Shown: positions 5,716 to 59,599 of the stretch, piece after piece | How the letters are laid out: each line of letters opens with the position of its first letter | Position numbering within the stretch: position 1 is the first letter of the stretch | Assembly: GCA_002269645.1 (NCBI GenBank) | Contig: NIVC01000862.1 | Coordinates: 124,001 to 188,000 of the forward strand | DNA: 64,000 nt | Origin: Macrostomum lignano | Taxonomy: Eukaryota | Direction of reading: 5' to 3' | Made by a program: the position numbers and the translations under genes | The notes under the pieces: generated by a model | Seen by the model: only the letters and a program-made list of their open reading frames with translations | Told to the model about the DNA's origin: nothing | The model's database searches: none

Positions 5716-5936
5716 TGCACTCCCAAACTGGCATAAACGCGAAAACGCAATTAAAAATTATGGTTGAGGCATTCAACCTGTAAAGCAAAATTCCACTGAC
5801 AGACAGACTTTAAATAGAAATTTCTAAGTATATTGGGATAATAATGAAAATTCGAGCAAGTTGACGAGGAACTCATCGTGTTAAAAACACATAAAGCATG
5901 GCCATAATAACGCATCTCAGTCAATGTCGCTTGCAG

Positions 5937-43100: not shown

Positions 43101-43625
43101 AATGTATGACTTTGACTATACATCATGTAAAGTGCCATATGTCGTGTCATGTCATATCATGTAAAGTGACGCTAATAAATATATCGATCACTGCCCCGCG
43201 GGGGCTTTCGTGGTTTGATCTCGCACTGCGTAACACTAGTGTTACAAATGTATCTGGATTTTTGGTCCTATAGCTATGTTGGATTCCTGTACGGGCGTAA
43301 CCAAGGAAGGAAGCACTGCTGGGGATACAAAATTAGCTATGGGAGTGACATTCCAAAAACTTGACAACAGGATAGGCGGATAAACGCGGTTTAGTGCATT
43401 TGCGCAATATTCTGGACTTCCGAGCATCAAAGCCACTTTTGATAAACTTGGTCTCGTTTCAAAGCTGAATATAAATCCTTCACTACTAACAGAGCTTCAA
43501 TAAGACGTTTAATAAAGTATTAATAGTGCTCCCTCGCCATAAAGGCTTTCATCCATTTTTCCAGACCACGAGACCTCGGGGATACTGCACGGTTTCTTTC
43601 CCAAAGCTTGTGACAGAAGACTGTG

Positions 43626-43737: not shown

Positions 43738-43866
43738 AAAGCCACGGAAATTCCATGGGGGGCACATCGGGTGGGCATGGGGGTCCGGTGAGATAACAAA
43801 GCGCATGCTGGTATATGTACTGAAGGAAACTCATTATTGCACCCACCCCACTCCGCCTAGAAAGTA

Positions 43867-43874
43867 TATATAAG
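43867..43874 (+). promoter_or_regulatory. TATA box (TATATAAG) upstream of the PC4-like gene
   Basis: Canonical TATAWAW-type sequence ~75 bp upstream of ATG 43949. Confidence 0.55.
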
Positions 43875-43948
43875 ATGGGCGATTTTTTGAGGTTGGCTTC
43901 ATGACGAAAGGAATTTTTGTGCATCTTTCTTAAAGAAGCATCTCATTA

Positions 43949-44671
43949 ATGGATCTCTGTGACGGCTTCAAAGTTCAAGTGCAAGAGTACGAAGGTCATC
44001 GCTTTATTGCAATCCGACGTTTCTTCTCCTCTGAAAGCGGGCTCAGAGCGGGCATCCCTGGCTTTAACCTCAATGCGTACCAATGGGAGAAGTTGAAGCA
44101 GCTGAAACGCCAGCTTGTGCACTCGGCAGTCAATCGGCACAGCGTCACAGTCAAGCTTGGCTTTGATAAACTCGTTGTGGTCAGCAGGGGCATCATCTGG
44201 CTGAAGCGTCTGCCGGAAGACTGTACAGAGGATTATCTGCGGCGGAACTCAGTGGCGCTGACTCCCCGTCTATGGGGAGAACTCTGGAAGAAGGCCGAGT
44301 GGATCGACAACGAGCTGCGAGAGAAGTCGGCGGAGAGTGAGTATCAGCTGGAGGCCGAGGACATCAAGCATGAGGGCCAAGAAGCACAGCTGGTCAGCGA
44401 AGAAGAAGAGGAGAAGAGGCTGCGCATCGTCGAGTCGGACAATGCAACCAGCTCGCCTGTTCTGCCAGAGACTTCAGTCGGGCGCATACCCCAGCAAGAC
44501 AGCGACCTGTCGCACGACCCACTGTGGTACCGGTTCCGTGCTGCTTCAGGGCTCGGCAACAGCGGCTGTCACAAACGAAAGCTTCCGTGGCCCCTGCGCA
44601 GGCAAAATGCAATCAAGTTGCCCAAAGTGATCAATGGTGGAGAGGATGGTGACGCAGAAAAAAGTGCTTGA
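43949..44671 (+). CDS. PC4/Sub1-like ssDNA-binding protein (two PC4-like repeats + acidic tail)
   Basis: FKVQVQEYEGHRFIAIRRFF..GLRAGIPGFNLNAYQWEKLK fits the PC4 pattern V.V.EF.G...IDIR.Y....G.KGISL...QW..L. A weaker second unit is KLGFDKLVVV..IIWLKR..NSVALTPRLWGEL. Confidence 0.75.
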   Translation: MDLCDGFKVQVQEYEGHRFIAIRRFFSSESGLRAGIPGFNLNAYQWEKLKQLKRQLVHSAVNRHSVTVKLGFDKLVVVSRGIIWLKRLPEDCTEDYLRRNSVALTPRLWGELWKKAEWIDNELREKSAESEYQLEAEDIKHEGQEAQLVSEEEEEKRLRIVESDNATSSPVLPETSVGRIPQQDSDLSHDPLWYRFRAASGLGNSGCHKRKLPWPLRRQNAIKLPKVINGGEDGDAEKSA

Positions 44672-44898
44672 TAAACTTTTTAAGTGACTATGCGTGGACA
44701 TTGCTATGCCATCTGTACGAGTATTGATGTCTAACAGTTCTATTTATCCAGCTTTTTCAGCTTATTCATTAATGTCCTATTAAATGAGCTCGTTTAAAAT
44801 TAAAAATAAAATAAAATAAGCATCTCTCTCTATAATTATGCTAGTTTACTGGTAAACTTAAGAATGCGAAATGAGTTTAATTTTTTCTCTAATTGAAA

Positions 44899-45966
44899 AT
44901 GGAAAAGATTTACTTTAACCCTGAGCAGCCAGCAAGCTTTTCTGGCTGCAATAAATTTATTAATGAAGTTCGCACGCAGGGTATCCGAGTGAGTGAAAAA
45001 GCTGCGAAAAACTGGCTTAACGATCAGACAGTCTACACATTACATAAGCCAGCAAGGAGGAATTATCCGAGGGCCCCAATCATAGTTCGAAGTATTGATG
45101 ACCAATGGGAGTTGGATCTGGTGGAGATGATTCCTTTTTCCAAGTATAATAACGGCTACAGGTATATTCTAACATGCATTGATGTGCTGTCCAAGTACGG
45201 ATGGGCGAGGGCATTAAAGAACAAGTCTTCTATTGAAGTGAAGTCGGCATTCGAGAGCATATTAAGAAGTTCAAAGCGGCAACCGCGCACTGTTCGCACT
45301 GATCAAGGGAAAGAGTTTATCAACTCTACTTTTCGCCAATGCTGTATGGAAAGGGGAATCCTGGCATTCCCAACCAACAGTGAGCAGAAGGCGGCTGTCA
45401 TTGAACGATGGAACCGAACTTTAAAGAGCAAAATGTGGCGCTACTTCACCCACAACAGCACTCTGCATTGGCTTGATGTGCTGGCTAAGCTAGTGAAGTC
45501 CTACAACAAAACTTACCACAGAAGCATACGAATGGCACCAACGAATGTCAGCCAGGAGAACGAGTCCGAGGTCTGGATGAGCCTATATGACGGGAAAGCG
45601 ATTGAAACTGTGGAAAAGCTGGGAAAGCCAAAGTTCAGCGAAAACCAGTCTGTGCGGATTTCCAATGCACCCAGGCTTTTTAGAAAAGGGTACAAGGCCA
45701 ACTGGAGCGAAGAAGTGTACACGGTGGTGTCCAGAGCTCCAAAGCATTATCCCTACATGTACAAGATAAAAGACATGGAAGGAGAAGAGATTCGTGGGCT
45801 TTTTCACGAGCATGAACTGCAGGCCGTTCCGGAGTCGCAGCGGCTGTATGTGATTGAGAAGATTCTGAAGACTGAGAAGCGGAGGCGTAAGATCCGATAT
45901 CTGGTCAAGTGGGCCGGCTACGACTTCACTGACTGGGTGGATGAGAAGGACTTAAGAAAAGTGTAA
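44899..45966 (+). CDS. Retroviral-like (rve) integrase with C-terminal chromodomain
   Basis: IYFNPEQPASFSG N-terminus; catalytic WELDLVEM, RTDQGKEF and VIERWNRTLK; chromodomain YVIEKILK..YLVKWAGY..DW. Frame intact. Confidence 0.95.
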   Translation: MEKIYFNPEQPASFSGCNKFINEVRTQGIRVSEKAAKNWLNDQTVYTLHKPARRNYPRAPIIVRSIDDQWELDLVEMIPFSKYNNGYRYILTCIDVLSKYGWARALKNKSSIEVKSAFESILRSSKRQPRTVRTDQGKEFINSTFRQCCMERGILAFPTNSEQKAAVIERWNRTLKSKMWRYFTHNSTLHWLDVLAKLVKSYNKTYHRSIRMAPTNVSQENESEVWMSLYDGKAIETVEKLGKPKFSENQSVRISNAPRLFRKGYKANWSEEVYTVVSRAPKHYPYMYKIKDMEGEEIRGLFHEHELQAVPESQRLYVIEKILKTEKRRRKIRYLVKWAGYDFTDWVDEKDLRKV

Positions 45967-45978
45967 GATGCCGACATT

Positions 45979-46806
45979 GTGCAGCCATTCCCAATTATGA
46001 GAAGCATCATCATTAACAGCGAAAATGCTGAAGGTACTCCTACTGACTTTCATTTTCACCTGCCTTCACCTATTTACTTGGATCGAAATGTGGACTATGA
46101 GGCAGGTCTGGCTGAAATCCATCTGCCTGCTGCATGGTTCAATGTTGACGAGCCTTACTGCTTCACTGTCTCAGATGGAAGAGAGCATGAGGCCTTGGTT
46201 CTTCAACCCGGACGCTTTGCTAGAGTGGAGGAGTTGGTGGAGCGCATGAATGAACTGCTGGCCAACTCTGAGTCACTGTTCTTCGATGCAATGAGCGAGA
46301 GGGAGTCTGAAATGGAGGCTGATGAGTCTGGTTTAATGGGGCGGAGCAGCGCTAGAGATATTGGCATAAAGTTTGAGATCCAAGAATTGAGAACGGTAGT
46401 GCTCAACAACACGGCTCGAGCAGAATTATTCCTTCCATCAAGTAAAATTCTGCAGTGGCTGGGATTCGGAAATCAGTCCGTGAAAATTCCACCTGGGCGC
46501 CAAGTTTCCATGTACCACATTGGCTGCCCGCCCACCAATCTGATCAACGTGCATTGTAGCATTGTGGAGTCAACTAATTGCAACTGGAATTCCCTGCTGC
46601 GAACTGTGAACATGAATCCTGAAGCCGGATGGGGAAGCTACTGGAGCAAAGTGTTTAAGAAAACAGTTTTCTTCCCCATTCAGAAAACAAATTTTCTACA
46701 CAGCATTCGAGTTCAACTGCGAGACATCTTTGGCTTCTCACTGACTGCTCATAGCGGCAGCCCTGTTCTGCTCACAATTCTGATACGTGAGAGACCAATG
46801 CAATGA
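45979..46806 (+). CDS. Minor capsid protein (penton-like single jelly-roll)
   Basis: DFHFHLPSPIYL..YEAGLAEIHLPAAWFNV and C-terminal INVHCSIVE..LLRTV..IRVQLRDIFG resemble Polinton minor capsid proteins. Position in the gene cluster fits. First ATG is at 45997. Confidence 0.75.
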   Translation: MQPFPIMRSIIINSENAEGTPTDFHFHLPSPIYLDRNVDYEAGLAEIHLPAAWFNVDEPYCFTVSDGREHEALVLQPGRFARVEELVERMNELLANSESLFFDAMSERESEMEADESGLMGRSSARDIGIKFEIQELRTVVLNNTARAELFLPSSKILQWLGFGNQSVKIPPGRQVSMYHIGCPPTNLINVHCSIVESTNCNWNSLLRTVNMNPEAGWGSYWSKVFKKTVFFPIQKTNFLHSIRVQLRDIFGFSLTAHSGSPVLLTILIRERPMQ

Positions 46807-47219
46807 ACTATCAGCAGCTGATTCGGCAGTATTCAGGGACTCGGACGGGAAATGAAAAGTCCATGCTCTATGGCTGCGGGAGTTTTCCTGGAATAATGAC
46901 TTACCAGCCTCCTCCAGCACCTTCCATAACATCATCATCATCATTAGCATCAAAGCCTGTACAAACCAGCAGTAGCAGCAGAAGCAATAGTACGAGTAAT
47001 AGAAACATAGGAAATCAAGCACAGGCTAAAAAGGTGAATAAGAAGCAGGTGCGCATGAAGAAGAAGAAAAAAAGTGGCGAAGCACGCAAAACAAGCAAGG
47101 TCAGAACAAGCAAGCAACCTAAGAAAAGAACGACTAAAACACAGACCAAGAAAACAGGCAAAAGAAACCAAAAAGTGGGCAAAGAAACTGTGAAGCGTGT
47201 TCTGGACTCACTCTCATAG
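46803..47219 (+). CDS. Small basic, Lys-rich putative core (DNA-condensing) protein
   Basis: Lies immediately upstream of MCP. K/R-rich C-terminal half. LYGCG fits the adenain cleavage consensus (M/L/I)xGx/G. ATGA overlap with the upstream stop. Confidence 0.55.
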   Translation: MNYQQLIRQYSGTRTGNEKSMLYGCGSFPGIMTYQPPPAPSITSSSSLASKPVQTSSSSRSNSTSNRNIGNQAQAKKVNKKQVRMKKKKKSGEARKTSKVRTSKQPKKRTTKTQTKKTGKRNQKVGKETVKRVLDSLS

Positions 47220-47221
47220 CA

Positions 47222-48504
47222 ATGGCTTACGGATTCAACCCGAGACTCGATTTGTTCAAGTCCCCCGTGCTGCAGACTGCTATTGAAAAATCCACGTATG
47301 TTGATATTCACCCCGTGAACTCTATTACTACTAACTCACCTATTGAATTCGACTGCCATCCATCGGCTGATGAGTACACTGATCTGCTGAGCTCATTCCT
47401 GTATATTCGCTGTCGCCTAGTCCGGCTTGGCGGGGCTTTGATGAGGGAGGAGGTTCGGAATGCCGATGGAGTTGTCACTGAGCGCAGAGACAGTGGGGTG
47501 CACCCAGAAAACTTTGTCCTGTCTACGGCATTCTCAGATGTAATCGTGAGCATCAACCAGCGCATTGTCTCAGGTGGAGACCAGCTCTACCCCTACCATG
47601 CCTACCTAAAAGCTCTCATGAGCTCATCCGATGCTCAGCAGTTAAATTTCTACCCCGCCGGATTCCTGGAACCCGAAACTGCTGCTGAGGGGCATGCCGA
47701 GAGACACAGGGAGTCCCGCTGGGTGGAGTATGCGGGACCGCTGCTCAGCGACATCTTCCAGTGTCCTGTTCTGCTGCTGAACAATTTACACCTGCACATC
47801 AAGCTGATGCCCAGTGATGCTGCATTCGCCATTCGAACCCCAGATGAGAACAACACAGCCTACCGAATGGAAATCTCCCACTGCATTCTGAACCTGCGCC
47901 GAGTCAAAGTGGCGCCTCACATCAGCCTAGCGCATGAGCAGGGACTTACCAATCAGAACGCACTTTACCCCATCGAGCGAACCGAAATGCAAAACTTCAT
48001 TCTACCCCAGGGAATTCAGTCAAAAAACATTGAAGGATTCACCCATGGCAAACTGCCGAAGTTCGTTATGCTGGTCTTCGTGAACCACCGAGCCTTCAAT
48101 GGCCATCACCATTCCAGCCCCTTCGAGTTCCAGAGCTTCAACCTCAGCCAGCTAGCACTAAAGAAAGGTGGTGAAGCCATGTGCCACGCTGCATTTGCAC
48201 CTGAGAATAATTCATTCGTGAGAGAGTACTTGCACTACCTGAAAAGCTGTCAGTCTGCCAGCCCTACCAACTCGGTTCCGTGGGTCCCCTACCAGTTGTT
48301 CTCCAACGGCAACACAGCTTTCGCATTCGATCTCACGCCTGAGGGAGCGGCCCTGTGGTACGGACAGAAGGAGGGAATTTGCGGCTGGAGATTCGCTTCC
48401 GACAGGCCCTGGAGGAGCCTGTATCTCTGATTGTTATGTGCCTGTATGACTCACTGATTGAGGTCACGAAGCACAGGGAGATTCTGCTAGATTTTCCATC
48501 CTAG
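47222..48504 (+). CDS. Major capsid protein (double jelly-roll); one frameshift near 48372
   Basis: LDLFKSPVLQTAIEKSTYVDIHP..PIEF..DEYTDL and FEFQSFNLSQL are Maverick MCP motifs. The shifted frame gives the expected C-terminus GNLRLEIRF..LIVMCLYDSLIEV..REILLDF*. Confidence 0.9.
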
Positions 48505-48527
48505 GAGTACGCTGGCGCAACGCTAAT

Positions 48528-49040
48528 ATGGATGCTTTTCAACTGCTTAAACTGGCTAAAAGCTTTTTGCCACAAAATAACTATTTAATTATTGTCTTGA
48601 ATTCAATAAATAAAACATCTTATGCTTTAAACTTTATTCAGCGAGCAACTCTCAAAAGAAATTTATCTCGATGTAAGTTTATTTTCTTTCTGCTTCAGTA
48701 CGGCTCGTCCTTTGGTCACTGGGTGGTTTGTTATGCCAATAAGGAGAATTCCATAGAACTCTTTAACTCTCTGGGCTGGGACTCAAGCACTTTAGAGATC
48801 ATTCACAGAGCACTGAAATCCTTTTGGTATTCTCCATTCTACTTACGTAGCAATGTGAATCGAATTCAGAGCTGCAACTCTGCTAAATGCGGTTTGTTCT
48901 GTCTCTTGTTTGCCTATCAAAAGTTTCGTTTCAAGCGCTCGTTTGAGTGGGTTCTGCGGCACCTCCATGCAAATCAGCAGAGCCACTTGAATGAAAGAAT
49001 TCTGCAAAGGTTTGAGAGTTGCTTAAGAAAAAAAATTTAA
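48528..49040 (+). CDS. Adenain-like cysteine protease
   Basis: GHWVVCY (His), IELFNSLG, and RIQSCNSAKCGLFC (Gln, Cys). Confidence 0.85.
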   Translation: MDAFQLLKLAKSFLPQNNYLIIVLNSINKTSYALNFIQRATLKRNLSRCKFIFFLLQYGSSFGHWVVCYANKENSIELFNSLGWDSSTLEIIHRALKSFWYSPFYLRSNVNRIQSCNSAKCGLFCLLFAYQKFRFKRSFEWVLRHLHANQQSHLNERILQRFESCLRKKI

Positions 49041-49077
49041 TTAGACTTTTAAAATCAAGGATTTAGCTCAACAGGCG

Positions 49078-49729
49078 ATGGAAACACGTGAGCGGATAAA
49101 CTGTTATGATGTGCGCCTGCGACAGGAAGCTGCATGATTGTCAGCGGGCCTACAAATGCAGGAAAGACAACCTTCGTGAAACATCTGATACAATACAAGG
49201 ATGTCATGTTTGATGTGAAGCCTGGGAGAGTTCTGTGGTACTACGGAATTTCACAAGCAGCACACTCTGAGCTCAGCAGTCTCGGCGTGCACTGCAGCAG
49301 GGATTTCCCAGCAGTATCGAGACCGCACTGAGACCCAATGACCTGGTTGTATTTGATGACCTGATTGAAGAAACTTCCAATTCTGCTGCAATGCGAAATG
49401 TTTTCACTGGAATTGCCCATCATTTGCCCTGCTTTCTGGTTATGCTGACCCAAAATGTATTTTTTAAAGGGAAGGAGTTGCGAACAATGAGTCTGAATGC
49501 GATGTACTTTGTGATCATGAAGAACCCCAGAGACCAGCTGCAGATTGCGGCGCTGGGCAGGCAGTGTTTTGCTGAGAAGCCCGGCTTTCTGCTGTCAGTG
49601 TTCAAGCACGTGACATCGCACGGCAGGGGAGCCTACCTGCTCCTGGATTTTCACCCTTCCACCCCTGATGAGCTGCGGGTCCGGGCTCGAATCCTGCCCA
49701 ATCAGCGACCCCACCTGGTTTACACTTAA
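49078..49729 (+). CDS. A32/FtsK-like packaging ATPase; two apparent 1-nt deletions (~49125, ~49290)
   Basis: Walker A GPTNAGKT; Walker B LVVFDDL in the next frame; HH..LVMLTQNVF..RTMSLNAMYFVIMKNPRD..YLLLDFHP. Confidence 0.9.
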
Positions 49730-49776
49730 GAATAACAGCCGAGATTTTGCCATTTGCTCTATATTCTGCAACACTA

Positions 49777-50094
49777 ATGATAATGGAAACATTCGACTCA
49801 CATGAAAGTTTGTTTGATGTTCTCGCCTCACCGAAATATTCCATCAGCTTTAAACGTCTGTTGATCAGAGCGGGTCCAAAAGCAGTACATGAATTTCTCA
49901 TTGAGGCCTGCTATAACCTATTGCAAAACACTCTGTCGTTCTCACTCACTGAAAAGGCAGCGCTAGTGAAGCAAAAGCAAATAATCCGCAAAATTTCTAC
50001 ACATAGAAGAGCTGCGGATCTGCTAAATACGGGTTTTATCAAAATTCTCTACATTCTAATAAAGCTAGTGAAGAAAAAGAAACAAAATGAATAA
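49777..50094 (+). CDS. Conserved small Polinton protein (PW-like), function unknown
   Basis: LLIRAGPKAVHEFLIEACYNLL..EKAALVKQKQIIRKIS resembles the recurrent Maverick pattern I..CICECALN.L.G...L...K..LR.LA. Confidence 0.55.
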   Translation: MIMETFDSHESLFDVLASPKYSISFKRLLIRAGPKAVHEFLIEACYNLLQNTLSFSLTEKAALVKQKQIIRKISTHRRAADLLNTGFIKILYILIKLVKKKKQNE

Positions 50095-50779
50095 GTTCTC
50101 AGAAATGGTTCTGATCCCCAAGTCAGAATACGACATGCTCACACAGAATTTGAAGCCAGTTGAGTCTGAACTCGACACTGCTGTGAGATATGCGCAGAGG
50201 AAATGCAATGATATTTTGCTTGCCGAGGATTGCCCAGACGATGTGAAAGCTGCCATGTACCATGATGCGATGAAGAGTTTGCTGGCCAAGCGCAAGCGGA
50301 CTGGAAAGGATGATGCGGTACCTGCGAGTGATGCAAAGATGCTGAAAACTGATATTGCACCAAGCAGCTGGGGGGAAAAGATCACCCAATCCGTGCCGCA
50401 GAAGTTTAAAGCGAGAGCCCGCAGTCTATGGGCCATCCTATCTGGCAATCCTTCTCTGATTCGGGTGTCCGAAAATGGCGAGGCGCAAATTTGTGGGAAG
50501 ACAATACCCTCCTCAAACATCCTGGATTTGTTTCACAGTGCCGTGAGGGATTCGAAATGTGCCAGCGAGCCGGTGGGCTGGAGTGAGTTTGTCTCATTGC
50601 TCCAAGATAAAAAGCTTAACATCCCAGCTTCGGCCATAGGAAAGTCAGTTAGGCAGCTAATTTCTAAACCTGCTGTTTCTCCAGAGGCCGCCCCTGCTCA
50701 TCATACAGTTAAAGGATTCGGGAGTGGGAGAGCTTGGCTACAGCTGAACAGGAAAAAACTATTTAAGAAGGGGAACTGA
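50087..50779 (+). CDS. Uncharacterised Polinton protein (230 aa)
   Basis: Intact ORF overlapping the upstream stop. MVLIP, SNILDL, P.GW..F..LL...NIP..AIG resemble a family recurrent in Mavericks. Confidence 0.6.
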   Translation: MNKFSEMVLIPKSEYDMLTQNLKPVESELDTAVRYAQRKCNDILLAEDCPDDVKAAMYHDAMKSLLAKRKRTGKDDAVPASDAKMLKTDIAPSSWGEKITQSVPQKFKARARSLWAILSGNPSLIRVSENGEAQICGKTIPSSNILDLFHSAVRDSKCASEPVGWSEFVSLLQDKKLNIPASAIGKSVRQLISKPAVSPEAAPAHHTVKGFGSGRAWLQLNRKKLFKKGN

Positions 50780-50819
50780 GTCGGCTTCCCGATATCAGGC
50801 ATCTTGAAACCATCCGATC

Positions 50820-51314
50820 ATGAACTATATTGACTTCCAAGGCTTCCCACGCGAGAGATCGAGCAGAGATTTCGTTGTGAAGGAGCTAGCCATTGCCCAA
50901 GTCCGGGCAGGCAGTTACCATATCACTCATCACGTGTACGCCTCTCCGTTCTCATGGGAGCGAATCTCACCTGAGATGCAGGTGCATTACAGAAAGCTCT
51001 CAAAGAATTTGCATCATTTCAAGTGGACAGATGGATCCCGATCGTACATGCATTTGGCAAATGACATTCTAAACATTGCTTACGGCCCCACCTGGACAAG
51101 CGGGGTGAAAAAGTCCATCTTTCTGACTGAGCTGCTTGGCAGACAGGTGTACAACCTAGAGGATCTGGGATCACCTTTGATTCAAGCATCTGATACTGGT
51201 TGTGCAGTGAAAAATGTATTGCTCTACTACAACTGGCTGAAGCCAAAGTTCTGTATCAACTTAAGAAGCGAGTGTGCCCGCACACTCAAAGGCTCTCAAA
51301 GACAGCACCACTGA
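50820..51314 (+). CDS. DnaQ/DEDD-exonuclease-like small protein
   Basis: YIDFQGF..FVVKELAI..HHFKWTDG..Y..NLEDLG..CAVKNV pattern. The fold assignment is inference. Confidence 0.5.
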   Translation: MNYIDFQGFPRERSSRDFVVKELAIAQVRAGSYHITHHVYASPFSWERISPEMQVHYRKLSKNLHHFKWTDGSRSYMHLANDILNIAYGPTWTSGVKKSIFLTELLGRQVYNLEDLGSPLIQASDTGCAVKNVLLYYNWLKPKFCINLRSECARTLKGSQRQHH

Positions 51315-51331
51315 CAGAAAGGACTCTCTAA

Positions 51332-51895
51332 ATGAGTACACCTGCGACAGCCCTGCGAGTGACCAATCTGGTTGGCGGCGTGGATCTGAGGCTGGCTGGA
51401 GGCAGGGGTGCCCAGTTGCCTCTGCGGGAACTGGCTCTCAGCATGGCTCATGTCATCTATCGCCCGTCTGGCCCCGAGTGCTCATCAAGAGGATGCGGAA
51501 TCCCAGAGTGACTCTATTGCTCTATCCGACTGGACAACTGAGTATCTGTGGCGCCCGGAGCTACTCGGCCTCAGTCAGGCTGCCCGTCGCTTCGTGGCTA
51601 TGCTGCATCGCAGAGTTCCGCCTCAACTGCTGCCTCGTCAATCCGTTTGTGTCGAATTAAGACTATTACTGCTTATGGAAAAATAGACTTGCCCAAGGCT
51701 CTATCACTAAGAAACCTCTGTGAAGTGCTACCGAATGCGAAATATGAACCTGAAAGTTTTACTGCTTTAGTTTGTCAGCTTCAATACTGCAAGTGTACGC
51801 TTTTTCACAATGGCTCATTTGTGCTCAGCGGAGCAAAGTCTAAGCATATGCTACAATCAGACCGTTCCCTATTAGCTTGCTTGCTTTCAAACTGA
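51332..51895 (+). CDS. TATA-binding protein (TBP)-like gene, ~188 aa after correcting three 1-nt deletions
   Basis: Repeat 1: LRVTNLVGGVDL..LPLRELALSMAHVIYRPSGP/RVLIKRMRNPRVTLLLYPTGQLSICGARS/LSQAARRFVAML. Repeat 2: IKTITAYGKIDLPKALSLRNLCEVLPNAKYEPESFTALVCQLQYCKCTLFHNGSFVLSGAKS. Both align to the TBP core (QNIV..V.L..LDL..IA....AEYNP..F..VIMR..P..T.LIF.SGK.V.TGAKS..AARK.AR; YEPELF.GL..). Confidence 0.8.
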
Positions 51896-52453
51896 AATAA
51901 ATAAAAAGAAAGAATAAATCGCGGCTTGTTTAATTAAAATATTCAAATTAATTCTCTCTCATGCACTAGCTTTTTGTCTTCATTTTTAATTGCAATGAAA
52001 AACCAGTGGTGAACATCTTGTAGAGATAAACAAATAGCAAGCTAAAAGCAAATACGAGCAAGCAGATAAACCACTACAAAAATAGGAAAAAATAGTCCAA
52101 AAGCAGATGGAATATATTAAAACTTATAAAGCAATATCAGGATTCAAAAAACCAACCACAAAGTACAGGTAAAATTAGAAAAAAATAAAACTCTCACATG
52201 CCATCACCGCAAACACACCACCACCACTAACGAAGCATTGGTTTCATTATCATCATCGCGCAATTGTAAGTAAATATTGTGAAGCAAAAAATTGTTGCTA
52301 GCCTCAGCAGATGATCAAAGTTTTTATTGCATTTGGGAAAAATCCTATTTAGATTAGCGGTTAACCTTTATTCAATGTCAAAGAAAGAAACTTTGAAATC
52401 GCAAAGAAATTATTGTTTTTGTTTAGCAAGCTTGTTGTACTCATTATTCAATT

Positions 52454-52571
52454 TCAAAGTAGTCGGCGCCGTTTTGATGATTTCTGCTGCTGTTGCTGTT
52501 GTTGCTGTTGTTGTTGTTGTTGTTGCTGCTGTTGCTGTTGTTGCTGTTGTTGTTGTTGTTGTTGTTGTTGT

Positions 52572-52613
<42 letters not shown>

Positions 52614-55600
52614 AGCAGCCGAATGTGACCAAATGGGAGACTATAGTTAGGGCTCAGCCAAGCGCGCTTGTCTTCCCAAATGCTTAAGGCACACTTCCGC
52701 TGCTGCAAAGTGTACAGTCGGTGATGGATGCTGGCAATACGATGAACAACGACAGAATGGCTGCAGAGCTCATTGAACACCCTTAGGTAGTCACTGTGAG
52801 CCAGCTCTTTCTTAACAATGCATCCTTGAACTCCTTTGGCCTTCTTCTTTTCCGCGGCTTGGCTACTCGCCTTGAATGAGTAAAGCTTCGGCCTTAGGAG
52901 CAGCCACTCCTCAAAGCGAGCACCGGCTGCTTCATCCTTAATGCAGCCAAGTCGCGCTTTTAAATCATTCGAGAATAGCGCGTGCTCTTGAGGATAGTTT
53001 GAAGTGTCGAGCAGCTGCTTCGACTTCAACAGCGGTAGAACTTTAGACTGAACGCTCATGTTGCTGATTGAGAGAAAGAAAGAATCGGTATCACCACCGC
53101 ATAGCTTGATGACACCTCCATCGTTCTCTATCCAGGGCTTCAGTTTGTCGTAAAACAGCTCGTACATAATCATTTTCGAAAAGTCTAGGACGCATTGCCC
53201 GATAAAAATAGGCCGATCGAGCTTTAATTTTGTCTTTTGCAGTTCCAAAACGCTTAGTGAATCAGTAATTATGATAAAATTGGTAATTGTCGGCTTGGCA
53301 AGCAGTACCTTTACCTTTTCCACGTTGGTGCAGACTCGAATATCACGCCGCTTTCGCACATTCTCCATAGTTTTGCCGAATAGCGCGTTATTCTTTAACT
53401 TGTAGAAATCCTTTTCGAAGTTGGTTTTCGCTGCAGCCCGCTTCTGGCTATTTTTCTCGACGTAGGCAGCAAAGAGAGGCTCTTGGTGAAACTCAATCAT
53501 GCGATTGATGCGTCTAACCCGCATTCCATGGTTCAGGTAGAACGCCAAAATAGAGGAATGAACCACATAGGAAGGCTTATCGTGACAAGTGAGCATCAGC
53601 TTCTCTGTCGGATGATAGGTGGAGTTCTCCGTACCGACCTTTTCCCACAGCTGCTGCATGTATTCAGGAAATTCCCTGAAATTCGGGGCAGCCTTTTCCG
53701 GTGCAAATGGCAGGTCTTCGGTGGTTTCGTGAATCTCTGGGGGATACTCAAGGTCAACATCAAAGAGGTAGGCGAGTGGATCGGTTAGCTTGAGTCCTCG
53801 AATGCGATCTTCAGTCCACAAAAGCAGCTCATCATCGTCCAGCCAACGGAATCCTCCGACTGGTAAGTTCATAGTGAGCGCCTGTCCATACAGGTTGTTT
53901 GCATCCACAGCAAGAAGCTCGGTGAGGCCAGCATGAATAGTAGGAGTGCCACCATCAACATCCTCATTGCTGTCAACACCAGTGCTGGCGCCCGCTGCTG
54001 AGGTAGCCTGCACTTTGTGGATGTTAACAAACGACATGCCGCCGCGAATGCCGCGCTCAAACAGCGAATACATCTGCGCATCTGTTAGCAGTTCAATCCC
54101 TGACTTGATGGATTTCAATGCCGAAGCGAATGATAGGCCTGGTGTCGAAATAAAATGGACTGGATCAAGGCCATCCTCTTGCATGCTGATCTTGCGAAAA
54201 TTTTCAAAAATATCAGCCAACTGCCTGATGTCGAGCTCGAGGTAGCACAGCATGTACTCTTTTAGATTTGAAACCTGAAATTCTCGCCAGGCGCGTTGAG
54301 CATGCTCATAGTCAGAGTTGGTGCAGTGGCTCTTAGTCAGAGCATTGTAGAAGCTCTCTTGGCTGGGAAGCACGGCATCCTTCAGCACGTCTGAATTTTT
54401 AAGATAGTCATACGGGAAAACTCCCTTGCTGAAAAGCACTTCGGATGATAGCAGTGGGAATCTGCTGCGTAGGCGACTAGTGATACGACATTCAGCCTCT
54501 GGTAAATTTTTGATGAGCTGTGAGAGGCTGGCATTAAGAAATTGATTCGAATCAATGAACTGAATAGTAAAATTTAGGCTTGATCTTGCCCTCACTCTCA
54601 TACTCGCCGATTTTAAATTCGATTTTCATCGACAGAAACTGCTCTGGATTCAGAGGGATGACGGAGATTTTCCAACCCTCCATCAGACCCAAAGCGGATG
54701 ACATCATGAGATGGAGATCGTACCCCTTGAAATTGTGGAACACGACGGGAAGGAAAGACCTCTTTAGTCTGGCCTTCATATTACAATCAGCACACGCAGC
54801 TCCCCGAAATTCTCCGCTGAGGTGGTCGTGATCCCAATGTTTATTGGACCCTTCCGTGAATTCGCTTCCACAATAGCAGCAAGCTGTGGCTTCTCTGAAC
54901 TGTCGCCCTGCCATCTCTGTTCTTATCGCTGCTTGTCGACTGAACTCCGTGTTCCAGCCGTAAACTTCACGAGCGAGCTTCTCCAGCGATTGCAGGAAAT
55001 CGGAAATGCACTTATTAGGATCGTCGCTGACAAAAGTGCTCACTTTATCATCCGCTCCTCTGGGCGCTAGACCAGTCATCCCTTCTCTGTGCAGCACGAT
55101 GTAGCCAGCAGCAACAGCAATGTGCTCAGTTAACTTCTTCGTTGCTATACCAGCAATCGAATCTTCTTGGCATGGAGCATTCAATGCTTCGAAGTCGGCG
55201 TAAACAACAAATGGCGGACTAATTGTTTTTTCCCATGATGAGAATCGGAGAATATTATTCCTTTCATCCGGCAACTCTTCCTTTACGTTGATCACTCCAG
55301 GTTGACAAGGAGCTCGCTGTGTTCTTCAAAGGCTGCATCACTATGAAAGGGCAGCAAGCAGCGCTCACACCACTTCCGCCGATGCAGAGCTGCCTTGCTA
55401 TTAAGAAGCCTGTTGATGCTTGAAACAGCACACCAATGACCCGAGGCCTCGTCTTCTGATGGTGGAATAAATAAGAGTAGAACAACTTCTCGATCTTTAA
55501 TTGTAGCTGCAGTAGGCAAGCGGAGGACTTGAGCGCTCTCTTTCTCCCAGATGAAAACCGTGAAGCAAAGTCTCGGGTTCAGTCTCTCAACAATGGAAAG

Positions 55601-56763
55601 GTCAGTGACATTGATTGGCAAGTCAATTCCACTCATGTTAAGTTCATCCAGCCAGTCAGTGTAGGAAGACTCGCGTTGCGCTGATTTCTTTATTTTGTTG
55701 TCTTCCTTGTGCAGAAAAGCAAGGCATGCGTAAAGAAAGCAATTTACACCATTGCTTGGAGGACAAATAACCGCCTTCTTCCGAAGAAGTGGAGTCGGTA
55801 GAATAAATTCCGCAGCATGCCCGTGTAGTAGGAAACTCGTTCGACGAGAGCTGAGTAAAGTTCAAAAAAATTAATTTTTTCAATTATCCAGCCACTACCG
55901 TTGGTGTTGTAGACATCGACTTTGCGCTCCAGCTCTGTAAACTGCTGTCTCCACCAATCATCAAACTCCTGTATATCTACCATCAATCCGAGTTGTGTGC
56001 TCATCCATTTATCCTCCCCCTTGACAGCTTCTGACGCCTGCACTCTGACCATGTGCAAATTCAGTTTGATCTGAGCTTTAACAGAGCAATTATCCGAAGA
56101 GTCGAAGCGAATTTCAAGACACTGCTGCACTGCGATTTTGCAGAAATCGAGAAACTCGAATGTTTCAGTGGCAGCTCCAGGTGTAAATCGATGAACTTGA
56201 AGAACATCTTCGTGAGCGCTGGTTTTTAACGCCAGGGTGAATGAAGGTCCTACAATTGAAGAAGGGAAGATAGTATTAAAATATTTATGGAAAGTGGAAA
56301 TGATGAGAAATGTCTCTGGGAGTTATGGAAGTCGAATATTTTATTGCCCTTTTTACACTTACGAGTATACTATTTATCCTACTACCTTATATCTAGATTT
56401 AATATTTTTTTATTAATCAATACGAGCTACGTATAAGTGTAAAAAAAGAATTTGAAGAGTTATTATTGAAGAAATAGATGGAGTTCTGCTTTCGCATTTT
56501 TGTCAATTCATCTAATGAGGAATAAAAATGTCTCATTATTGTGAGTTCTCCGGCTTAATCCTGTTGGGAACCATTTGGGAGTTGTTGTGTAGGCGAGAAA
56601 AATAAAATATATAATTCCGTTGCTAAGAGACAGGAATGCAACAAACAGAAATGCATGAGTTCATAAAACCAGCAATGGAATGAAAAAACTCACCACTCGG
56701 TCCAAATTCGTGGCTGACAGCTGGGTCCACCGGCTCGTCCTCTTGACTCGATGAGGTGGCCAT
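52454..56763 (-). CDS. Protein-primed DNA polymerase B (pPolB), ~1290 aa, probably spliced; three small deletions in this copy
   Basis: Motifs: VVYADFEA (ExoI), EndoVII-like CCYC..DHDHLSGEFRGAAC..CN, VVFHNFKGYDLH, KGVFPYDY, AVDANNLYGQAL, KLKNNALFGKT, GGDTDSFF, KKKAKGV. Exon 1 is 56694-56763 and exon 2 runs 56249 to 52454. The deletions at ~54577 (2 nt), ~55317 and ~55827 are absent from the duplicate copy. Confidence 0.93.
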
Positions 56764-57466
56764 TGCAGAGGATTAATATTAGAAATAGAGCGACATTCAG
56801 TGAAGAACTCAATGCTGCTGAAATTCCAGTGTAAAAGTGTTGTTTGATAAATTTAACCCAAGAGCAATTCTGTCAGAGATGTAGTGGAGTGATAAATTTC
56901 CAGCATTCAGAGCTCTATGGAGCAGAAATTGAATCTAACCAAAGTCATGCTTGACTAACCAAATTCATGTCATTCTAAACATTGGGTATCATAGATAATC
57001 AATCCCATATTATACTCATAGAGTTGAGTAGATGCTGTGAACCTAACGGTAATTCTATAAGCCAGTGAACTTATAACTTCTTCGAAGATATTCATGTTTG
57101 AAAAAAAACAAGTAATGAATTCAACAAAGTCCAAGAAAGTGCAAAAGCTTTCATTAAAAGCAACCATCAATCCATTATATTTCTGGTAAAGCATTTCCCA
57201 ATGCAAAAAATCATGCTCGTTAGTCACCCTACTAATTAAAGCTGCTTATTAAAGCTTTATTATAAGAATAAGTTTGAATAGTAAGCCTAAATGATTTTCT
57301 TTTTCACTTTGCTTAGGATATTAATGAGAAACCTGTATGAGCACGATGAGGTGCAACGTAATTACGCTCGTAGTTAATATTTATGCAGGGTAGAATGCAT
57401 TGGTTTTCGGCTAAAAATATACAAATCTCGTTTCCCCTACTTTTAAATACTTTGAACTGGGACACT

Positions 57467-58453
57467 TTAAGAGCTACTTAAGCGAATGCGAGTTCCTCCC
57501 CCAAGGTCAATAAAATACTCGCCCTCGACTCTGCTCGGTAGTACCAGCTGAATGCAGAGTGACGGTGGCATCGGTGGCATGGCTGCTACGACTGGGATGT
57601 CACCGGTTTGGATTTCTGGTGCAGCCGGTGGAGTAGGAGGTTCGAATTCTCGCAGGAGATCGGTTAGGCTTGCTTCTGCCATCATTCTGGCTTGCTCCAT
57701 TTTTTTTCCTGCGACTGGAACAGGCCTGTAGGGTGGCATCTGTTGCTGCTCAGCTTCTTCATTTGCCATCTCAACAGGCTCCAACTCGATATCCTGGAAG
57801 AAGGCAGTATCCAACTCCGAAGGAGCTGCAAAACCAGTGGAATCGTCAGCCGGGTGGCCGGCATCAGCAGTTGGAAGCCCGGCACCGTCAGCGGGGAGGC
57901 CGGCATCAGCAGTTGGAAGGCCGGCACCGTCAGCGGGGAGGCCGGCATCAGTAGTTGGAAGGCCGGCACCGTCAGCTGGGAGGCCGGCATCAGTAGTTGG
58001 AAGGCCGGCACCGGTTGAACCAAAAAAATCTGATTGCTGCTCCACAGCGGCAAGTGCAGCAGCAAGCAGATCAAAGTTTGCGTCGGTAGCGTGCTGAAAA
58101 TCTTCATCAGGCTGCTGAAAGACGCCCTGAATTGTCTGGCTGAGTGCGCTGACCGGTGCTCGACTGCGCTCGATAATGTTGAGCTGCTCTTGACGCTGGG
58201 CAGCCTCCAAGGCAGCAAAGCGGGCTCGTTTTAAATCTCCAGGTGAGCTCCAGTTAATAATAATGTGGTTTTTGTGAGCTCGAACTTGCTGGCGCACATT
58301 AAAGAGCTCACGCGTCTGGCACTCGTGGCAAAGCAGCCAGCGACTGACATTGCAGCTGCTTTTCATTTTGTGACGTTTTAAGCCACCGAGCTCACATGAG
58401 TTGCAGGAAATGCATACCTCGTACACATATGAAGGGCAGCGCGATTTATTCAT
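57467..58453 (-). CDS. Uncharacterised 328-aa protein: Cys/His-rich N-terminus, four 14-aa repeats, acidic/Pro-rich C-terminal half
   Basis: Intact ATG-to-stop ORF, identical in the duplicate copy, with a TATA box upstream. Confidence 0.65.
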   Translation of the reverse strand: MNKSRCPSYVYEVCISCNSCELGGLKRHKMKSSCNVSRWLLCHECQTRELFNVRQQVRAHKNHIIINWSSPGDLKRARFAALEAAQRQEQLNIIERSRAPVSALSQTIQGVFQQPDEDFQHATDANFDLLAAALAAVEQQSDFFGSTGAGLPTTDAGLPADGAGLPTTDAGLPADGAGLPTADAGLPADGAGLPTADAGHPADDSTGFAAPSELDTAFFQDIELEPVEMANEEAEQQQMPPYRPVPVAGKKMEQARMMAEASLTDLLREFEPPTPPAAPEIQTGDIPVVAAMPPMPPSLCIQLVLPSRVEGEYFIDLGGGTRIRLSSS

Positions 58454-58547
58454 TCCAAATTTTTAAATGTTTGAATAGAAAAATCAAATTGAAGTTAAAT
58501 TCAAATTAGAAGTAGAAACTTATGTCCCGTATTCAAGTATACGGTGT

Positions 58548-58555
58548 CTTATATA
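58548..58555 (-). promoter_or_regulatory. TATA box (TATATAAG) upstream of the 328-aa gene
   Basis: Same 8-mer as at 43867, ~95 bp upstream of ATG 58453. Confidence 0.55.
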
Positions 58556-58593
58556 CCTCGCTTATTCGAATCTGCGTTAATAAAAACATAGCC

Positions 58594-58640
58594 GCTATGT
58601 TTACAGCTTAGCTATGTTTACAGCTTAGCTATGTTTACAG
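58594..58640. repeat. 17-bp triplet GCTATGTTTACAGCTTA containing TGTTTAC
   Basis: Read directly: two full copies and one partial. Confidence 0.85.
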
Positions 58641-58893
58641 TCAGTAACCCAGCCGTCTCAGAAACCGGGTTTTTTAAAATAATTTTATTAGAAAACCCAG
58701 GTACAGAGCCTCTATTGAAAGCATACATGTACAAAAGTTCCTTTGCACTTGCCGCCAACTGGAACTCCCGACCAGACTGGGGAGCAATAAAACTGATAAC
58801 TATTGAGCGTCCAATTCCATTTAGCAACACACCCACCACCCCAAGAAAGGGGGAGATGCTTGGCTATTATAATCTTATTAAAGCAGCATCTTG

Positions 58894-58936
58894 TTATTGA
58901 AACTTTTGCCTAATTAATAGGCAAAAGTTTCAATAA
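58894..58936. other. Perfect 19-bp inverted repeat with 5-nt loop (hairpin/cruciform)
   Basis: TTATTGAAACTTTTGCCTA-ATTAA-TAGGCAAAAGTTTCAATAA. Confidence 0.85.
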
Positions 58937-59280
58937 ATTCCAAAATTCCAAAATCCTTAAATTCCAAAATCAAGTGATTTTTTCAACAGTTGGTAGCTCA
59001 AATTTTAGACATGAATTGCAAATTGATTTTATTGTAATCATTGAAATAAAGACACGCCCCTCCTCCTTTTACGATACCCGATTGAATATTAAATGTCATT
59101 CAGAAGCAAAGCATTGCCTGGTTTTATGAACCGAACCGCCTGTGTCCGTCGTAGCAGAACACACATTTGCCAATACTCATTCATTGCGGTTAACGGAATT
59201 CCCGCGGAGCCCCACCCCATTCGCAAATACTTTCACCAATGTACTCTCACTAGGAGGTCTCACGGAATTTCCATGGCCTG

Positions 59281-59392
59281 CCCTGCGGCAGAGTCGCTCA
59301 ATGGATTTACATAGGGCCGTATGTTCACTCACTAGGGCCCATGGCTTTTCCACGGAAATTCCTGCGGCAGAGTTCTGTTATCCCATACTACT
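59281..59392 (-). repeat. Polinton right terminal inverted repeat
   Basis: Reverse complement of 43626-43737; ends ...CCCATACTACT. Confidence 0.95.
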
Positions 59393-59404
59393 ACTGTTAT
59401 CCCA

Positions 59405-59598
59405 TTCCCGCGGAGCCCCACCCCATTCGCAAATACTTTCACCAATGTACTCTCACTAGGAGGTCTCACGGAATTTCCATGGCCTGCCCTGCGGCAGAGT
59501 CGCTCAATGGATTTACATAGGGCCGTATGTTCACTCACTAGGGCCCATGGCTTTTCCACGGAAATTCCTGCGGCAGAGTTCTGTTATCCCATACTACT
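59405..59598 (-). repeat. Tandem duplicate of the right end (59199-59392) including a second full TIR (59487-59598)
   Basis: Direct repeat at a 206-bp offset with 12-nt filler ACTGTTATCCCA. Confidence 0.9.
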
Positions 59599-59599
59599 T

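What the first reader, a model, noticed from the sequence alone, without database searches (positions are those of the whole stretch)
43865..58555. Candidate self-contained transcription module: TBP-like + PC4-like + matching TATATAAG promoters at both ends
Seen: the two outermost inward-facing genes each have an identical TATATAAG 75-95 bp upstream of their ATG. The element encodes homologues of two general transcription factors plus a Cys/His-rich acidic protein. Inference: an early/late cascade in which host TBP fires the terminal genes and the element TBP/PC4 pair then drives the capsid cluster, or the reverse. This is the strongest candidate for an undescribed system in the window.
Basis: inference. 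Interest (0 to 1): 0.72.

Follow-up and report, generated by a model that had tools for sequence, protein, structure and literature searches.

The report
Flatworm Maverick with private TATA code
A virus-like transposon of a flatworm carries its own altered TATA-binding protein, keeps ordinary TATA boxes before its two outermost genes and a conserved variant box (TAAGAA) before most capsid-cluster genes, so it likely uses host factors first and its own factor later to switch on particle-building genes.

Summary
The region is a Maverick/Polinton of Macrostomum lignano (host named). TATATAAG lies 74 and 94 nt before the PC4-like and 328-aa genes and is kept in subfamilies whose leaders no longer align. 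The TBP-like gene is a full two-repeat TBP under purifying selection, frame-broken in this copy and open in 9 of 11 siblings.

New here: a second motif, TAAGAA (mostly CTTAAGAA), precedes 8 of 10 internal genes and neither terminal gene. It recurs before 6 of 10 in a distant TBP-bearing family and is missing from a TBP-less family. It sits where other Mavericks have a canonical TATA plus initiator. This resembles the herpesvirus TBP-mimic/TATT late system.

Against: no start sites or binding were measured; host TBP could accept this box; no initiator peak follows it. The module is not self-contained: it has no polymerase or TFIIB. PC4 is more likely a replication ssDNA-binding protein, and the 328-aa gene is missing from the second family. 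Two promoter classes: about 0.85. Element TBP reads the variant box: about 0.55.

The parts
43620..43625 (.). left copy of the 6-bp target-site duplication
   Evidence: same 6 bases follow the last TIR at window-equivalent 64547 in L061
43626..43757 (+). left terminal inverted repeat, AGTAGT terminus
   Evidence: 97% complementary to 59261-59392 and 59467-59598
43867..43874 (+). canonical TATA box (class 1) before the PC4-like gene
   Evidence: TATAWAW in 19 of 19 family-1 PC4 leaders
43949..44671 (+). PC4-fold protein, two PC4-like repeats plus a low-confidence tail; likely ssDNA-binding
   Evidence: dN/dS 0.08-0.19 where dS is finite
44857..44864 (+). variant box CTTAAGAA before the integrase, intergenic
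   Evidence: TAAGAA in 7 of 7 unalignable leaders
44899..45966 (+). retroviral-type integrase with chromodomain
   Evidence: PF00665 E=8e-13, PF00385 E=5e-4
45951..45958 (+). variant box before the penton-like gene, inside the last integrase codons
   Evidence: its two codons are the only 2 of 30 invariant six-fold columns with one codon in all 5 rows
45997..46806 (+). 269-aa ORF, inferred minor capsid (penton-like) protein
   Evidence: no Pfam hit; homologues follow the integrase in metagenomic Mavericks; name inferred from position
46654..46661 (+). variant box TTTAAGAA before the basic ORF
   Evidence: TAAG at -147 here and -138 in family 2
46803..47219 (+). 138-aa Lys-rich basic ORF, inferred core protein
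   Evidence: role inferred
47118..47125 (+). variant box CCTAAGAA before the major capsid gene
   Evidence: TAAG at -102 here and -105 in family 2; lies in Lys-rich coding DNA, so weaker evidence
47222..48500 (+). inferred major capsid protein, frame-broken near its 3' end in this copy
   Evidence: 427 aa in siblings; homologues in metagenomic Mavericks; no Pfam hit
48528..49040 (+). adenovirus-type C5 protease; no variant box in either family
   Evidence: PF00770 E=2.6e-5; 0 of 24 copies
49022..49029 (+). variant box before the packaging ATPase
   Evidence: 25 of 25 family-1 copies; other Mavericks have TATAWAW here in 23 of 50
49078..49729 (+). packaging ATPase, frame-broken in this copy
   Evidence: 217 aa in siblings; homologues carry PF04665
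49725..49732 (+). variant box overlapping the ATPase stop, before the 105-aa ORF
   Evidence: 22 of 24 copies; other Mavericks have TATAAA here in 21 of 61
49777..50779 (+). 105-aa and 230-aa conserved Maverick ORFs; the second has no TAAGAA
50762..50769 (+). variant box TTTAAGAA before the Maelstrom-like ORF; in other subfamilies TATATAAGAA, which fits both classes
   Evidence: 26 of 26 TAAGAA, 15 of 26 also TATAWAW
50820..51314 (+). Maelstrom/DEDDh-like ORF, cut short in this copy; in siblings it runs about 109 codons over the first TBP repeat in another frame
51260..51267 (+). variant box before the TBP gene
   Evidence: 27 of 27 family-1 copies; family 2 has canonical TATAAAAG here
51332..51895 (+). 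two-repeat TBP-like gene, frame-broken in this copy
   Evidence: sibling protein pLDDT 93, TM 0.83 to TBP; dN/dS 0.16-0.40
52454..56322 (-). protein-primed DNA polymerase B, frame-broken in this copy
   Evidence: PF03175 E=2.6e-11; one 1200-aa frame in sibling L046
57467..58453 (-). 328-aa protein: Cys/His N-terminal domain, variable repeats, acidic; family 1 only
   Evidence: no informative Pfam or Atlas hit
58548..58555 (-). canonical TATA box (class 1) before the 328-aa gene
   Evidence: TATAWAW in 10 of 13 copies
59261..59598 (-). two internal copies of the right TIR
59603..64000 (-). 99.8% duplicate of the right arm; the element ends beyond the window

Best explanation
This Maverick has two classes of conserved upstream boxes and its own selected TBP: canonical TATA boxes before the terminal genes, likely read first by host TBP, and a variant TAAGAA box before most integrase, capsid and packaging genes, likely read later by the element TBP, which would recruit host TFIIB and RNA polymerase II. 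Shown: the two motif classes, their conservation and positions, the TBP fold, selection on TBP, and co-occurrence in two families. Inferred: that the boxes are core promoters, who binds them, and the timing. The PC4-fold protein is likely an early ssDNA-binding helper of protein-primed replication. The 328-aa protein may be a family-1 early activator.
For: (1) TAAGAA within -160..-25 of 8 of 10 internal genes; in 5000 random window sets no 6-mer reached 8 (window chosen after looking). (2) With motif and window fixed beforehand, distant family 2 (TBP 35%, capsid about 40% identical, rearranged) has it before 6 of 10 genes, 7 copies on the sense strand and 0 on the other, 12 of 20000 random sets as high; the protease and the 230/198-aa gene lack it in both families. 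(3) Terminal genes: TAAGAA in 0 of 19 and 0 of 13 copies, TATAWAW in 19 of 19 and 10 of 13. (4) Kept as DNA: 7 of 7 unalignable integrase leaders, and the only 2 of 30 six-fold columns with a fixed codon. (5) Same place as real TATA boxes: TATAWAW before the ATPase in 23 of 50 other Mavericks (4.2 expected), with an initiator-like word 24-35 nt after 24 of 57 TATA sites. (6) TBP and PC4 in 10 of 10 family-2 elements picked by ATPase; TBP-less family 3 lacks the motif before capsid, penton, ATPase, protease and polymerase genes. (7) TBP fold pLDDT 93, TM 0.83, dN/dS 0.16-0.40. (8) 9 of 9 element-type TBPs share changes on the DNA face (yeast numbering F99P, A100R, F116Y, V122S/T, T124C, N159T, V161T/S/N, P191T/S/N) and keep F190, F207, N69, V71, L114 and the E186/E188 stirrup (residue roles partly recalled).
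Against: No start site, binding or timing was measured. By PMC13566119 (passages) cellular TBP tolerates any base at positions 1, 6, 7 and 8 and T at 2, so CTTAAGAA fits host TBP structurally. No initiator peak follows the variant box (4 of 37 sites, same as the flanking bins). In family 1 the TBP gene itself sits behind the variant box, so it needs leaky host reading or read-through to start. The first TBP repeat is overlapped by a second open frame, which could explain some substitutions. Loss of one intercalating Phe could mean weak DNA binding. The TBP-less control is one distant lineage, and one terminal ORF there has TAAGAA in 5 of 8 copies. Family 2's ATPase has TAAGAG, and its TBP gene a canonical box. 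TBP+TFIIB Mavericks from metagenomes show no TAAGAA excess (9 of 69 against 5.9), while TAAGAA is mildly enriched over all metagenomic leaders (30 of 304 against 17.4). Integrase leaders also hold TATAWAW in 10 of 18 copies. Copies are not independent.
Confidence: 0.55

Rival explanations
1. Both boxes are read by host TBP/TFIID. TAAGAA is a deliberately weak TATA box that keeps capsid genes low until templates multiply, and the element TBP does something else, such as boosting all promoters or acting as a decoy for TBP regulators.
For: CTTAAGAA passes the structural rules for cellular TBP (PMC13566119 passages); one box fits both classes in 15 of 26 copies; other Mavericks run the same genes from plain TATA boxes; EBV BcRF1 binds TATA and TATT alike in vitro (PMC4893493 passage).
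Against: A merely weak box could take many forms, yet one 6-mer is fixed at 8 unrelated sites and in two distant families; the shared DNA-face changes in 9 of 9 element TBPs point to a changed target.
Confidence: 0.25
2. TAAGAA is not a TBP site but a start-site or activator element, like the baculovirus late TAAG, read by another element protein (for example the Maelstrom-like ORF) or by a co-infecting virus.
For: The core is TAAG, the baculovirus late element (PMC4893493 passage); no initiator follows it; one family-2 copy lies only 10 nt before an ATG; the Maelstrom-like ORF is next to TBP in both families.
Against: Baculovirus TAAG needs a viral RNA polymerase, and none was seen here. Maelstrom-like relatives are widespread in arthropod clusters, yet TAAGAA is not enriched at the matching sites of 50-61 other Mavericks. 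The distance to the ATG matches TATA boxes elsewhere.
Confidence: 0.12
3. One reading: TBP, PC4 and the 328-aa protein act together as one element-encoded transcription complex.
For: TBP and PC4 co-occur in families 1 and 2 and are both missing from family 3; PC4 is a Pol II co-activator in cells (recalled).
Against: 328-aa gene absent from family 2; PC4 found in 2 Maverick contigs without TBP in the DNA held and not in the 7 TBP+TFIIB contigs; PC4 folds bind ssDNA, and the T5 homologue is tied to replication by its PDB title; in family 2 PC4 shares its promoter with the polymerase.
Confidence: 0.15
4. The motif is an RNA-processing signal (trans-splice acceptor or 3'-end signal) that resolves one polycistronic transcript, as in host operons.
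For: About 30% of host genes are trans-spliced and 15% lie in operons (PMC8629364 passages); the ten genes are packed on one strand; two of them have no box.
Against: The host acceptor motif is YTNCAG, not TAAGAA; most sites lack a pyrimidine tract (listing); the integrase box lies 186 nt after the previous stop but 33-60 nt before the ATG in 7 of 7 leaders.
Confidence: 0.06

Closest known systems
Beta/gamma-herpesvirus viral pre-initiation complex (KSHV ORF24, EBV BcRF1; TATT/TATTWAA late promoters)
   Same: A virus without its own RNA polymerase encodes a TBP-fold protein; early genes have canonical TATA boxes and structural genes a non-canonical box; the DNA face is more polar than in cellular TBP (PMC4893493 passages; PMC12529657 abstract and introduction).
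   Different: Here a bare 188-aa TBP with no extra domains; no six-protein complex was identified; the TFIIB-side acidic stirrup is kept; the box is (C/T)(T/A)TAAGAA; a 16-kb integrating element; nothing is tested experimentally.
Mavericks/Polintons (animal adintoviruses; Starrett et al. 2021, PMC8502044)
   Same: TIRs with AGTAGT ends, 6-bp target duplication, integrase, protein-primed PolB, C5 protease, packaging ATPase, inferred capsid genes. The Fig. 5 legend lists a gene 'similar to TATA binding proteins' in a MELD virus (figure not seen).
   Different: That paper's main text has no occurrence of 'promoter', 'PC4' or 'Macrostomum'. Typical Mavericks sampled here use canonical TATA plus initiator at the same sites.
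TBP+TFIIB-bearing Mavericks found here in metagenomes (L173, L201, L210, L211, L221, L223, L240)
   Same: Polymerase-less Mavericks with a divergent TBP that shares an FH motif at the fourth Phe.
   Different: They add a TFIIB-like gene, show no PC4 in the DNA held, no TAAGAA excess and no TATA before the ATPase (0 of 9). Their TBPs fall apart from the flatworm ones in free trees, but one clade is not rejected (p-AU 0.70).
Baculovirus late TAAG promoter
   Same: TAAG core upstream of structural genes.
   Different: Read by a viral RNA polymerase (PMC4893493 passage); none was seen in this element.
Cellular TBP and TRF2-like paralogues
   Same: Same saddle fold (TM 0.83); the host has a canonical TBP and a TRF-like gene.
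   Different: 34% and 26% identical to the element TBP; separate clade (support 99-100).

Membership tests
Maverick/Polinton | Terminal inverted repeats with AGTAGT-type ends | tested here: met
   132-nt TIR, 97%
Maverick/Polinton | 6-bp target-site duplication | tested here: met
   exact for this copy, and for 6 of 10 sibling pairs examined, 1 more with one mismatch
Maverick/Polinton | Retroviral-type integrase and protein-primed PolB | tested here: met
   PF00665, PF03175
Maverick/Polinton | C5 protease and packaging ATPase | tested here: met
   PF00770; ATPase homologues carry PF04665
Maverick/Polinton | Double jelly-roll major capsid and penton proteins | tested here: inconclusive
   no Pfam hit and not folded; homologous ORFs in other Mavericks
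TBP family (PF00352) | Two TBP repeats in a saddle fold | tested here: met
   sibling ORF: pLDDT 93, TM 0.83, E=1e-13
TBP family (PF00352) | Four intercalating phenylalanines | tested here: not met
   F190 and F207 kept; F116 is Tyr; the F99 column is Pro with Trp or His beside it, in 9 of 9. So: a TBP-fold paralogue, not a canonical TBP.
TBP family (PF00352) | Binds and bends a TATA-type box | not testable with these tools
   needs binding assays
PC4/Sub1 (PF02229) | PC4 fold | tested here: met
   1.7 A over 63 columns to human PC4, E=0.007; Pfam score under cut-off
PC4/Sub1 (PF02229) | Co-activation of Pol II transcription | not testable with these tools
   no binding prediction was obtained
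Herpesvirus vPIC-type late system | Virus-encoded TBP-like protein and no viral RNA polymerase | tested here: met
Herpesvirus vPIC-type late system | Non-canonical box before structural genes, canonical before early genes | tested here: met
   by sequence only
Herpesvirus vPIC-type late system | TATTWAA motif | tested here: not met
   motif is TAAGAA; only the box at 50760 reads TATTTAA
Herpesvirus vPIC-type late system | Six-protein complex and a Pol II-binding N-terminal domain | tested here: not met
   the TBP is 188 aa with no extra domain; the other ORFs had no such Pfam hit; remote homology was not searched
Herpesvirus vPIC-type late system | Late, replication-dependent kinetics | not testable with these tools
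   only assembled contigs were available

The most novel reading that the evidence does not exclude
A lineage of flatworm Mavericks has evolved an orthogonal TBP-promoter pair in nature: an altered-specificity TBP and a recoded TATA box at each capsid-cluster promoter. This gives a 16-kb transposon-virus a one-protein late-gene switch, convergent with the six-protein herpesvirus system, and implies that animal Mavericks run a real early/late viral programme.
Probability: 0.45. Interest if true: 0.85.

Novelty: new variant of a known kind. Interest (0 to 1): 0.7.

Why it matters
How Mavericks switch on their capsid genes, and whether they run a viral cycle at all, is open. A named factor and a named 8-bp box make that testable in a laboratory flatworm by start-site mapping, binding assays and knock-down. 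If the TBP prefers the variant box, it is a natural altered-specificity TBP that uses host Pol II, a minimal counterpart of herpesvirus late transcription and a possible orthogonal promoter tool. The control set also shows that ordinary Mavericks carry plain TATA-initiator promoters before individual structural genes. I found no paper on either point in searches; the library lacks most subscription journals.

Tried and rejected
Expression: no RNA holder listed. The runs laid were assembled contigs of uncertain kind that covered the element fairly evenly, so they give no start sites, strand or level.

TBP-PC4 complex prediction: no job ran, so no verdict.

Identity of the two TATATAAG words as evidence by itself: rejected.

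Initiator after the variant box: looked for, not found.

TFIIB-like gene in the flatworm elements: best hit E=2.9.

Independent origins of flatworm and metagenomic Maverick TBPs: suggested by two free trees but not shown, p-AU 0.70, and the constrained tree scored higher.

IMG/VR scans gave few relatives: 0, 4, 7 and 1 loci. Atlas search of the 328-aa N-terminus gave nothing above 0.77. PC4 homologue search gave 1 protein.

A de novo motif search in family 3 and in the TBP+TFIIB clade found no convincing shared word.

Patikoglou 1999 (PMC317201) is not held, so TBP-base contacts come from a secondary summary and recall. The supplement of PMC8502044 had no hit for TBP, PC4, TATA or Macrostomum; its Fig. 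5 and the bioRxiv supplements could not be seen and may show which element carries TBP. 10.1101/2022.05.25.493380 (passages) treats TFIIB only in giant viruses.


Full report
What the region is. Window 43626 onwards is a Maverick/Polinton: a 132-nt TIR with an AGTAGT end, integrase, C5 protease, packaging ATPase, protein-primed PolB and inferred capsid genes. The right arm is duplicated (54452-58845 again at 59603-64000) and the last TIR ends at window-equivalent 64547, followed by the same 6 bases that precede the left end. A source label names the host as Macrostomum lignano. A DNA search with the TBP region scored 40 of 135 candidates, 12 at 99-100% and 28 at 84-87%. Several genes are frame-broken in this copy and open in siblings; assembly error is likely but not shown.

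The observation. Both TATATAAG boxes are there, 74 and 94 nt before the ATGs. Their identity alone is weak evidence (13 of 100 window shuffles give 3 or more; shuffled leaders share some 8-mer in 805 of 2000). Conservation is strong: across 7 PC4 leaders and 7 leaders of the 328-aa gene that align no better than shuffles, the TATA word is in 6 of 7 each. In family 2 the two terminal boxes are identical for a plain reason: they lie inside long TIRs, in front of PolB at one end and PC4 at the other.

The TBP. The window gene starts at 51332 and is broken at three places. Nine of 11 siblings have an open 188-aa frame. That protein folds as a full TBP saddle (pLDDT 93; TM 0.83 to solved TBPs), is 34% identical to host TBP and has dN/dS 0.16-0.40 among 6 family-1 copies. 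Flatworm family-1 and family-2 TBPs and their unnamed database relatives form one clade apart from host TBP and TRF. With yeast numbering taken, 9 of 9 element-type rows keep N69, V71, L114, F190, F207 and E186/E188, and change F99, A100, F116, V122, T124, Q158, N159, V161 and P191. That the four Phe intercalate is from PMC12529657 (introduction); the base rules for V71, L114, V161, L205, V213 and T215 are from PMC13566119 (passages); the other roles, including the TFIIB stirrup and which repeat touches which half of the box, are recalled.

A second motif. TAAGAA, mostly CTTAAGAA, lies upstream of 8 of the 10 internal genes at about -40 to -147; no 6-mer reached 8 in 5000 random sets of ten windows (the window was set after looking, and the ATPase start used was 5 nt off). 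Over family-1 copies it precedes integrase 16 of 18, penton-like 20 of 20, basic 21 of 21, capsid 23 of 23, ATPase 25 of 25, 105-aa ORF 22 of 24, Maelstrom-like 26 of 26, TBP 27 of 27, protease 0 of 24, 230-aa ORF 0 of 25, PC4 0 of 19 and 328-aa 0 of 13 (copies are related, and most were picked by TBP). It is kept as DNA: 7 of 7 unalignable integrase leaders (4 of 200 shuffles share some 6-mer in all 7), and the two codons that spell it at the integrase end are the only 2 of 30 invariant six-fold columns with one codon in all 5 rows.

Independent test and controls. Family 2 was picked by its ATPase (47% identical). All 10 elements have TBP and PC4 hits and none has the 328-aa gene. With motif and window fixed, one copy has TAAGAA before 6 of 10 genes, 7 sense against 0 antisense in 6.8 kb, 12 of 20000 random sets as high; misses are protease, ATPase (TAAGAG), the 198-aa ORF and TBP (canonical TATAAAAG). 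Family 3, a distant Maverick lineage in the same genome (30 stretches from 12 loci), has no TBP, PC4 or 328-aa hit at E<=1. Of its 11 genes scored, 9 have TAAGAA in no copy, one in 1 of 11, and one terminal ORF in 5 of 8; its integrase leader and one more ORF were not scored.

What kind of element the motif is. I fetched 81 other Maverick-type loci by ATPase (the best 80 of 444 metagenomic matches plus 1 viral contig). In those outside the TBP+TFIIB clade, canonical TATAWAW precedes the ATPase in 23 of 50 (4.2 expected), mostly at -35 to -64, and TATAAA lies at the ATPase stop in 21 of 61 (5.7 expected); TAAGAA is at chance there (2 of 50, 5 of 61). An initiator-like word follows 24 of 57 TATA sites at 24-35 nt, peaking at 32-34. 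The flatworm element has TAAGAA at these same two positions. This argues that it is a TATA-position core element. Against that, it has no such initiator peak (4 of 37). It does not match the host trans-splice acceptor YTNCAG (PMC8629364 passages).

Mechanism. Most likely, host TBP and Pol II first fire the terminal TATA promoters (PC4 and the 328-aa gene in family 1; PC4 and PolB in family 2). Element TBP is then made from a canonical box (family 2), or by leaky or read-through transcription followed by self-amplification (family 1, where the box before the neighbouring gene fits both classes in 15 of 26 copies). It binds the variant box, recruits host TFIIB and Pol II, and turns on integrase, capsid and packaging genes. 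The motif classes, positions, fold, selection and co-occurrence are shown; binding, start sites and order are inferred. The main rival is that host TBP reads a weak box: PMC13566119 reports that cellular TBP accepts any base at positions 1, 6, 7 and 8. A further caveat: the upstream Maelstrom-like frame runs 89-128 codons over the first TBP repeat in 11 of 11 copies checked from both families (125, 34 and 9 of 5000 after synonymous resampling), and synonymous change there is 0.29 against 0.62 in the rest, so that half is under double constraint.

PC4 and the 328-aa protein. The PC4-like protein has two PC4-type repeats and matches human PC4 structurally, with modest statistics. It is selected. 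Nothing ties it to TBP beyond co-occurrence in families 1 and 2. PC4 hits also occur in 2 of the 81 other loci with no TBP in the DNA held. A role as ssDNA-binding protein in strand-displacement replication is the simpler reading (inference). The 328-aa protein has a conserved Cys/His head, variable repeats and an acidic part, which would suit an activator, but it is confined to family 1.

Wider picture. Seven of the 81 loci carry a TBP, and all 7 have an adjacent TFIIB-like gene; 2 more end in a TFIIB tail. They show no TAAGAA excess and no TATA before the ATPase (0 of 9). Whether their TBP shares an origin with the flatworm one is open. Earlier AI notes of this scan report that clade and two other Polinton cases with a short TBP and a shared box; I take them as leads only.

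Literature. Starrett et al. 2021 (PMC8502044: passages, section 3.4, supplement search; preprint 10.1101/697771: passages) list a TBP-like gene in a figure legend with no discussion of promoters. Searches (listings) showed no paper on TBP-linked promoter classes in animal Mavericks. The closest working model is the herpesvirus TBP mimic with TATT late promoters (PMC4893493 passages; PMC12529657 abstract and introduction). The element works like that system on sequence evidence but is not a member of it. PMC4402545 (passages) added only that TBP avoids guanine clashes through Hoogsteen pairs.

Verdict. Real, well conserved and more specific than first described, but not self-contained and not yet shown to be a cascade. 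New variant of a known kind; interest 0.7.

Noticed in passing
L173, L201, L210, L211, L221, L223, L240 (tails in L229, L243): Metagenomic Mavericks with an adjacent TBP and TFIIB-like gene pair; TBP is head-to-head with the capsid gene, 18-41 nt apart, in the 5 loci where both starts are held.
   Followed up: partly
L164-L244, before the ATPase and at its stop: Ordinary Mavericks carry canonical TATA boxes with an initiator-like word about 32-34 nt downstream in front of single structural genes.
   Followed up: yes
window 50820-51660; L043 8805-9650; L110 1395-2276: The Maelstrom/DEDDh-like ORF runs on over the whole first TBP repeat in another frame in both families, with suppressed synonymous change: a conserved dual-coding stretch. 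Two copies have the two frames fused (L009, L010).
   Followed up: partly
L107 about 5486-5820, also L109, L113: The family-2 integrase appears to be split by a short GT..AG intron near its 5' end; not checked against RNA.
   Followed up: no
window 54452-64000 and L061 1-1548: Tandem duplication of the right arm with extra internal TIR copies; real or assembly artefact not determined.
   Followed up: partly
L090 3639-4125: A right arm where PolB is cut off and followed by a PC4 gene with its TATA box facing inward, as if the left end were copied to the right.
   Followed up: no
L123-L134, L146-L163: A third, very abundant Maverick family (117 scored of 1691 candidates) with short A/T-rich leaders and no TATA or TAAGAA before most genes.
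   Followed up: partly
window 58590-58635 (-): Three tandem TGTAAACATAGC-like units upstream of the 328-aa gene's TATA box, resembling forkhead sites (recalled); AAACATA is in 4 of 7 leaders.
   Followed up: no
window 52485-52613: The PolB frame ends in a long Gln-coding microsatellite.
   Followed up: no
window 1-5700: Long 21/42-nt tandem repeat with strong strand skew.
   Followed up: no
window 41971-42229: Short very high-copy repeat (contig depth in the thousands).
   Followed up: no
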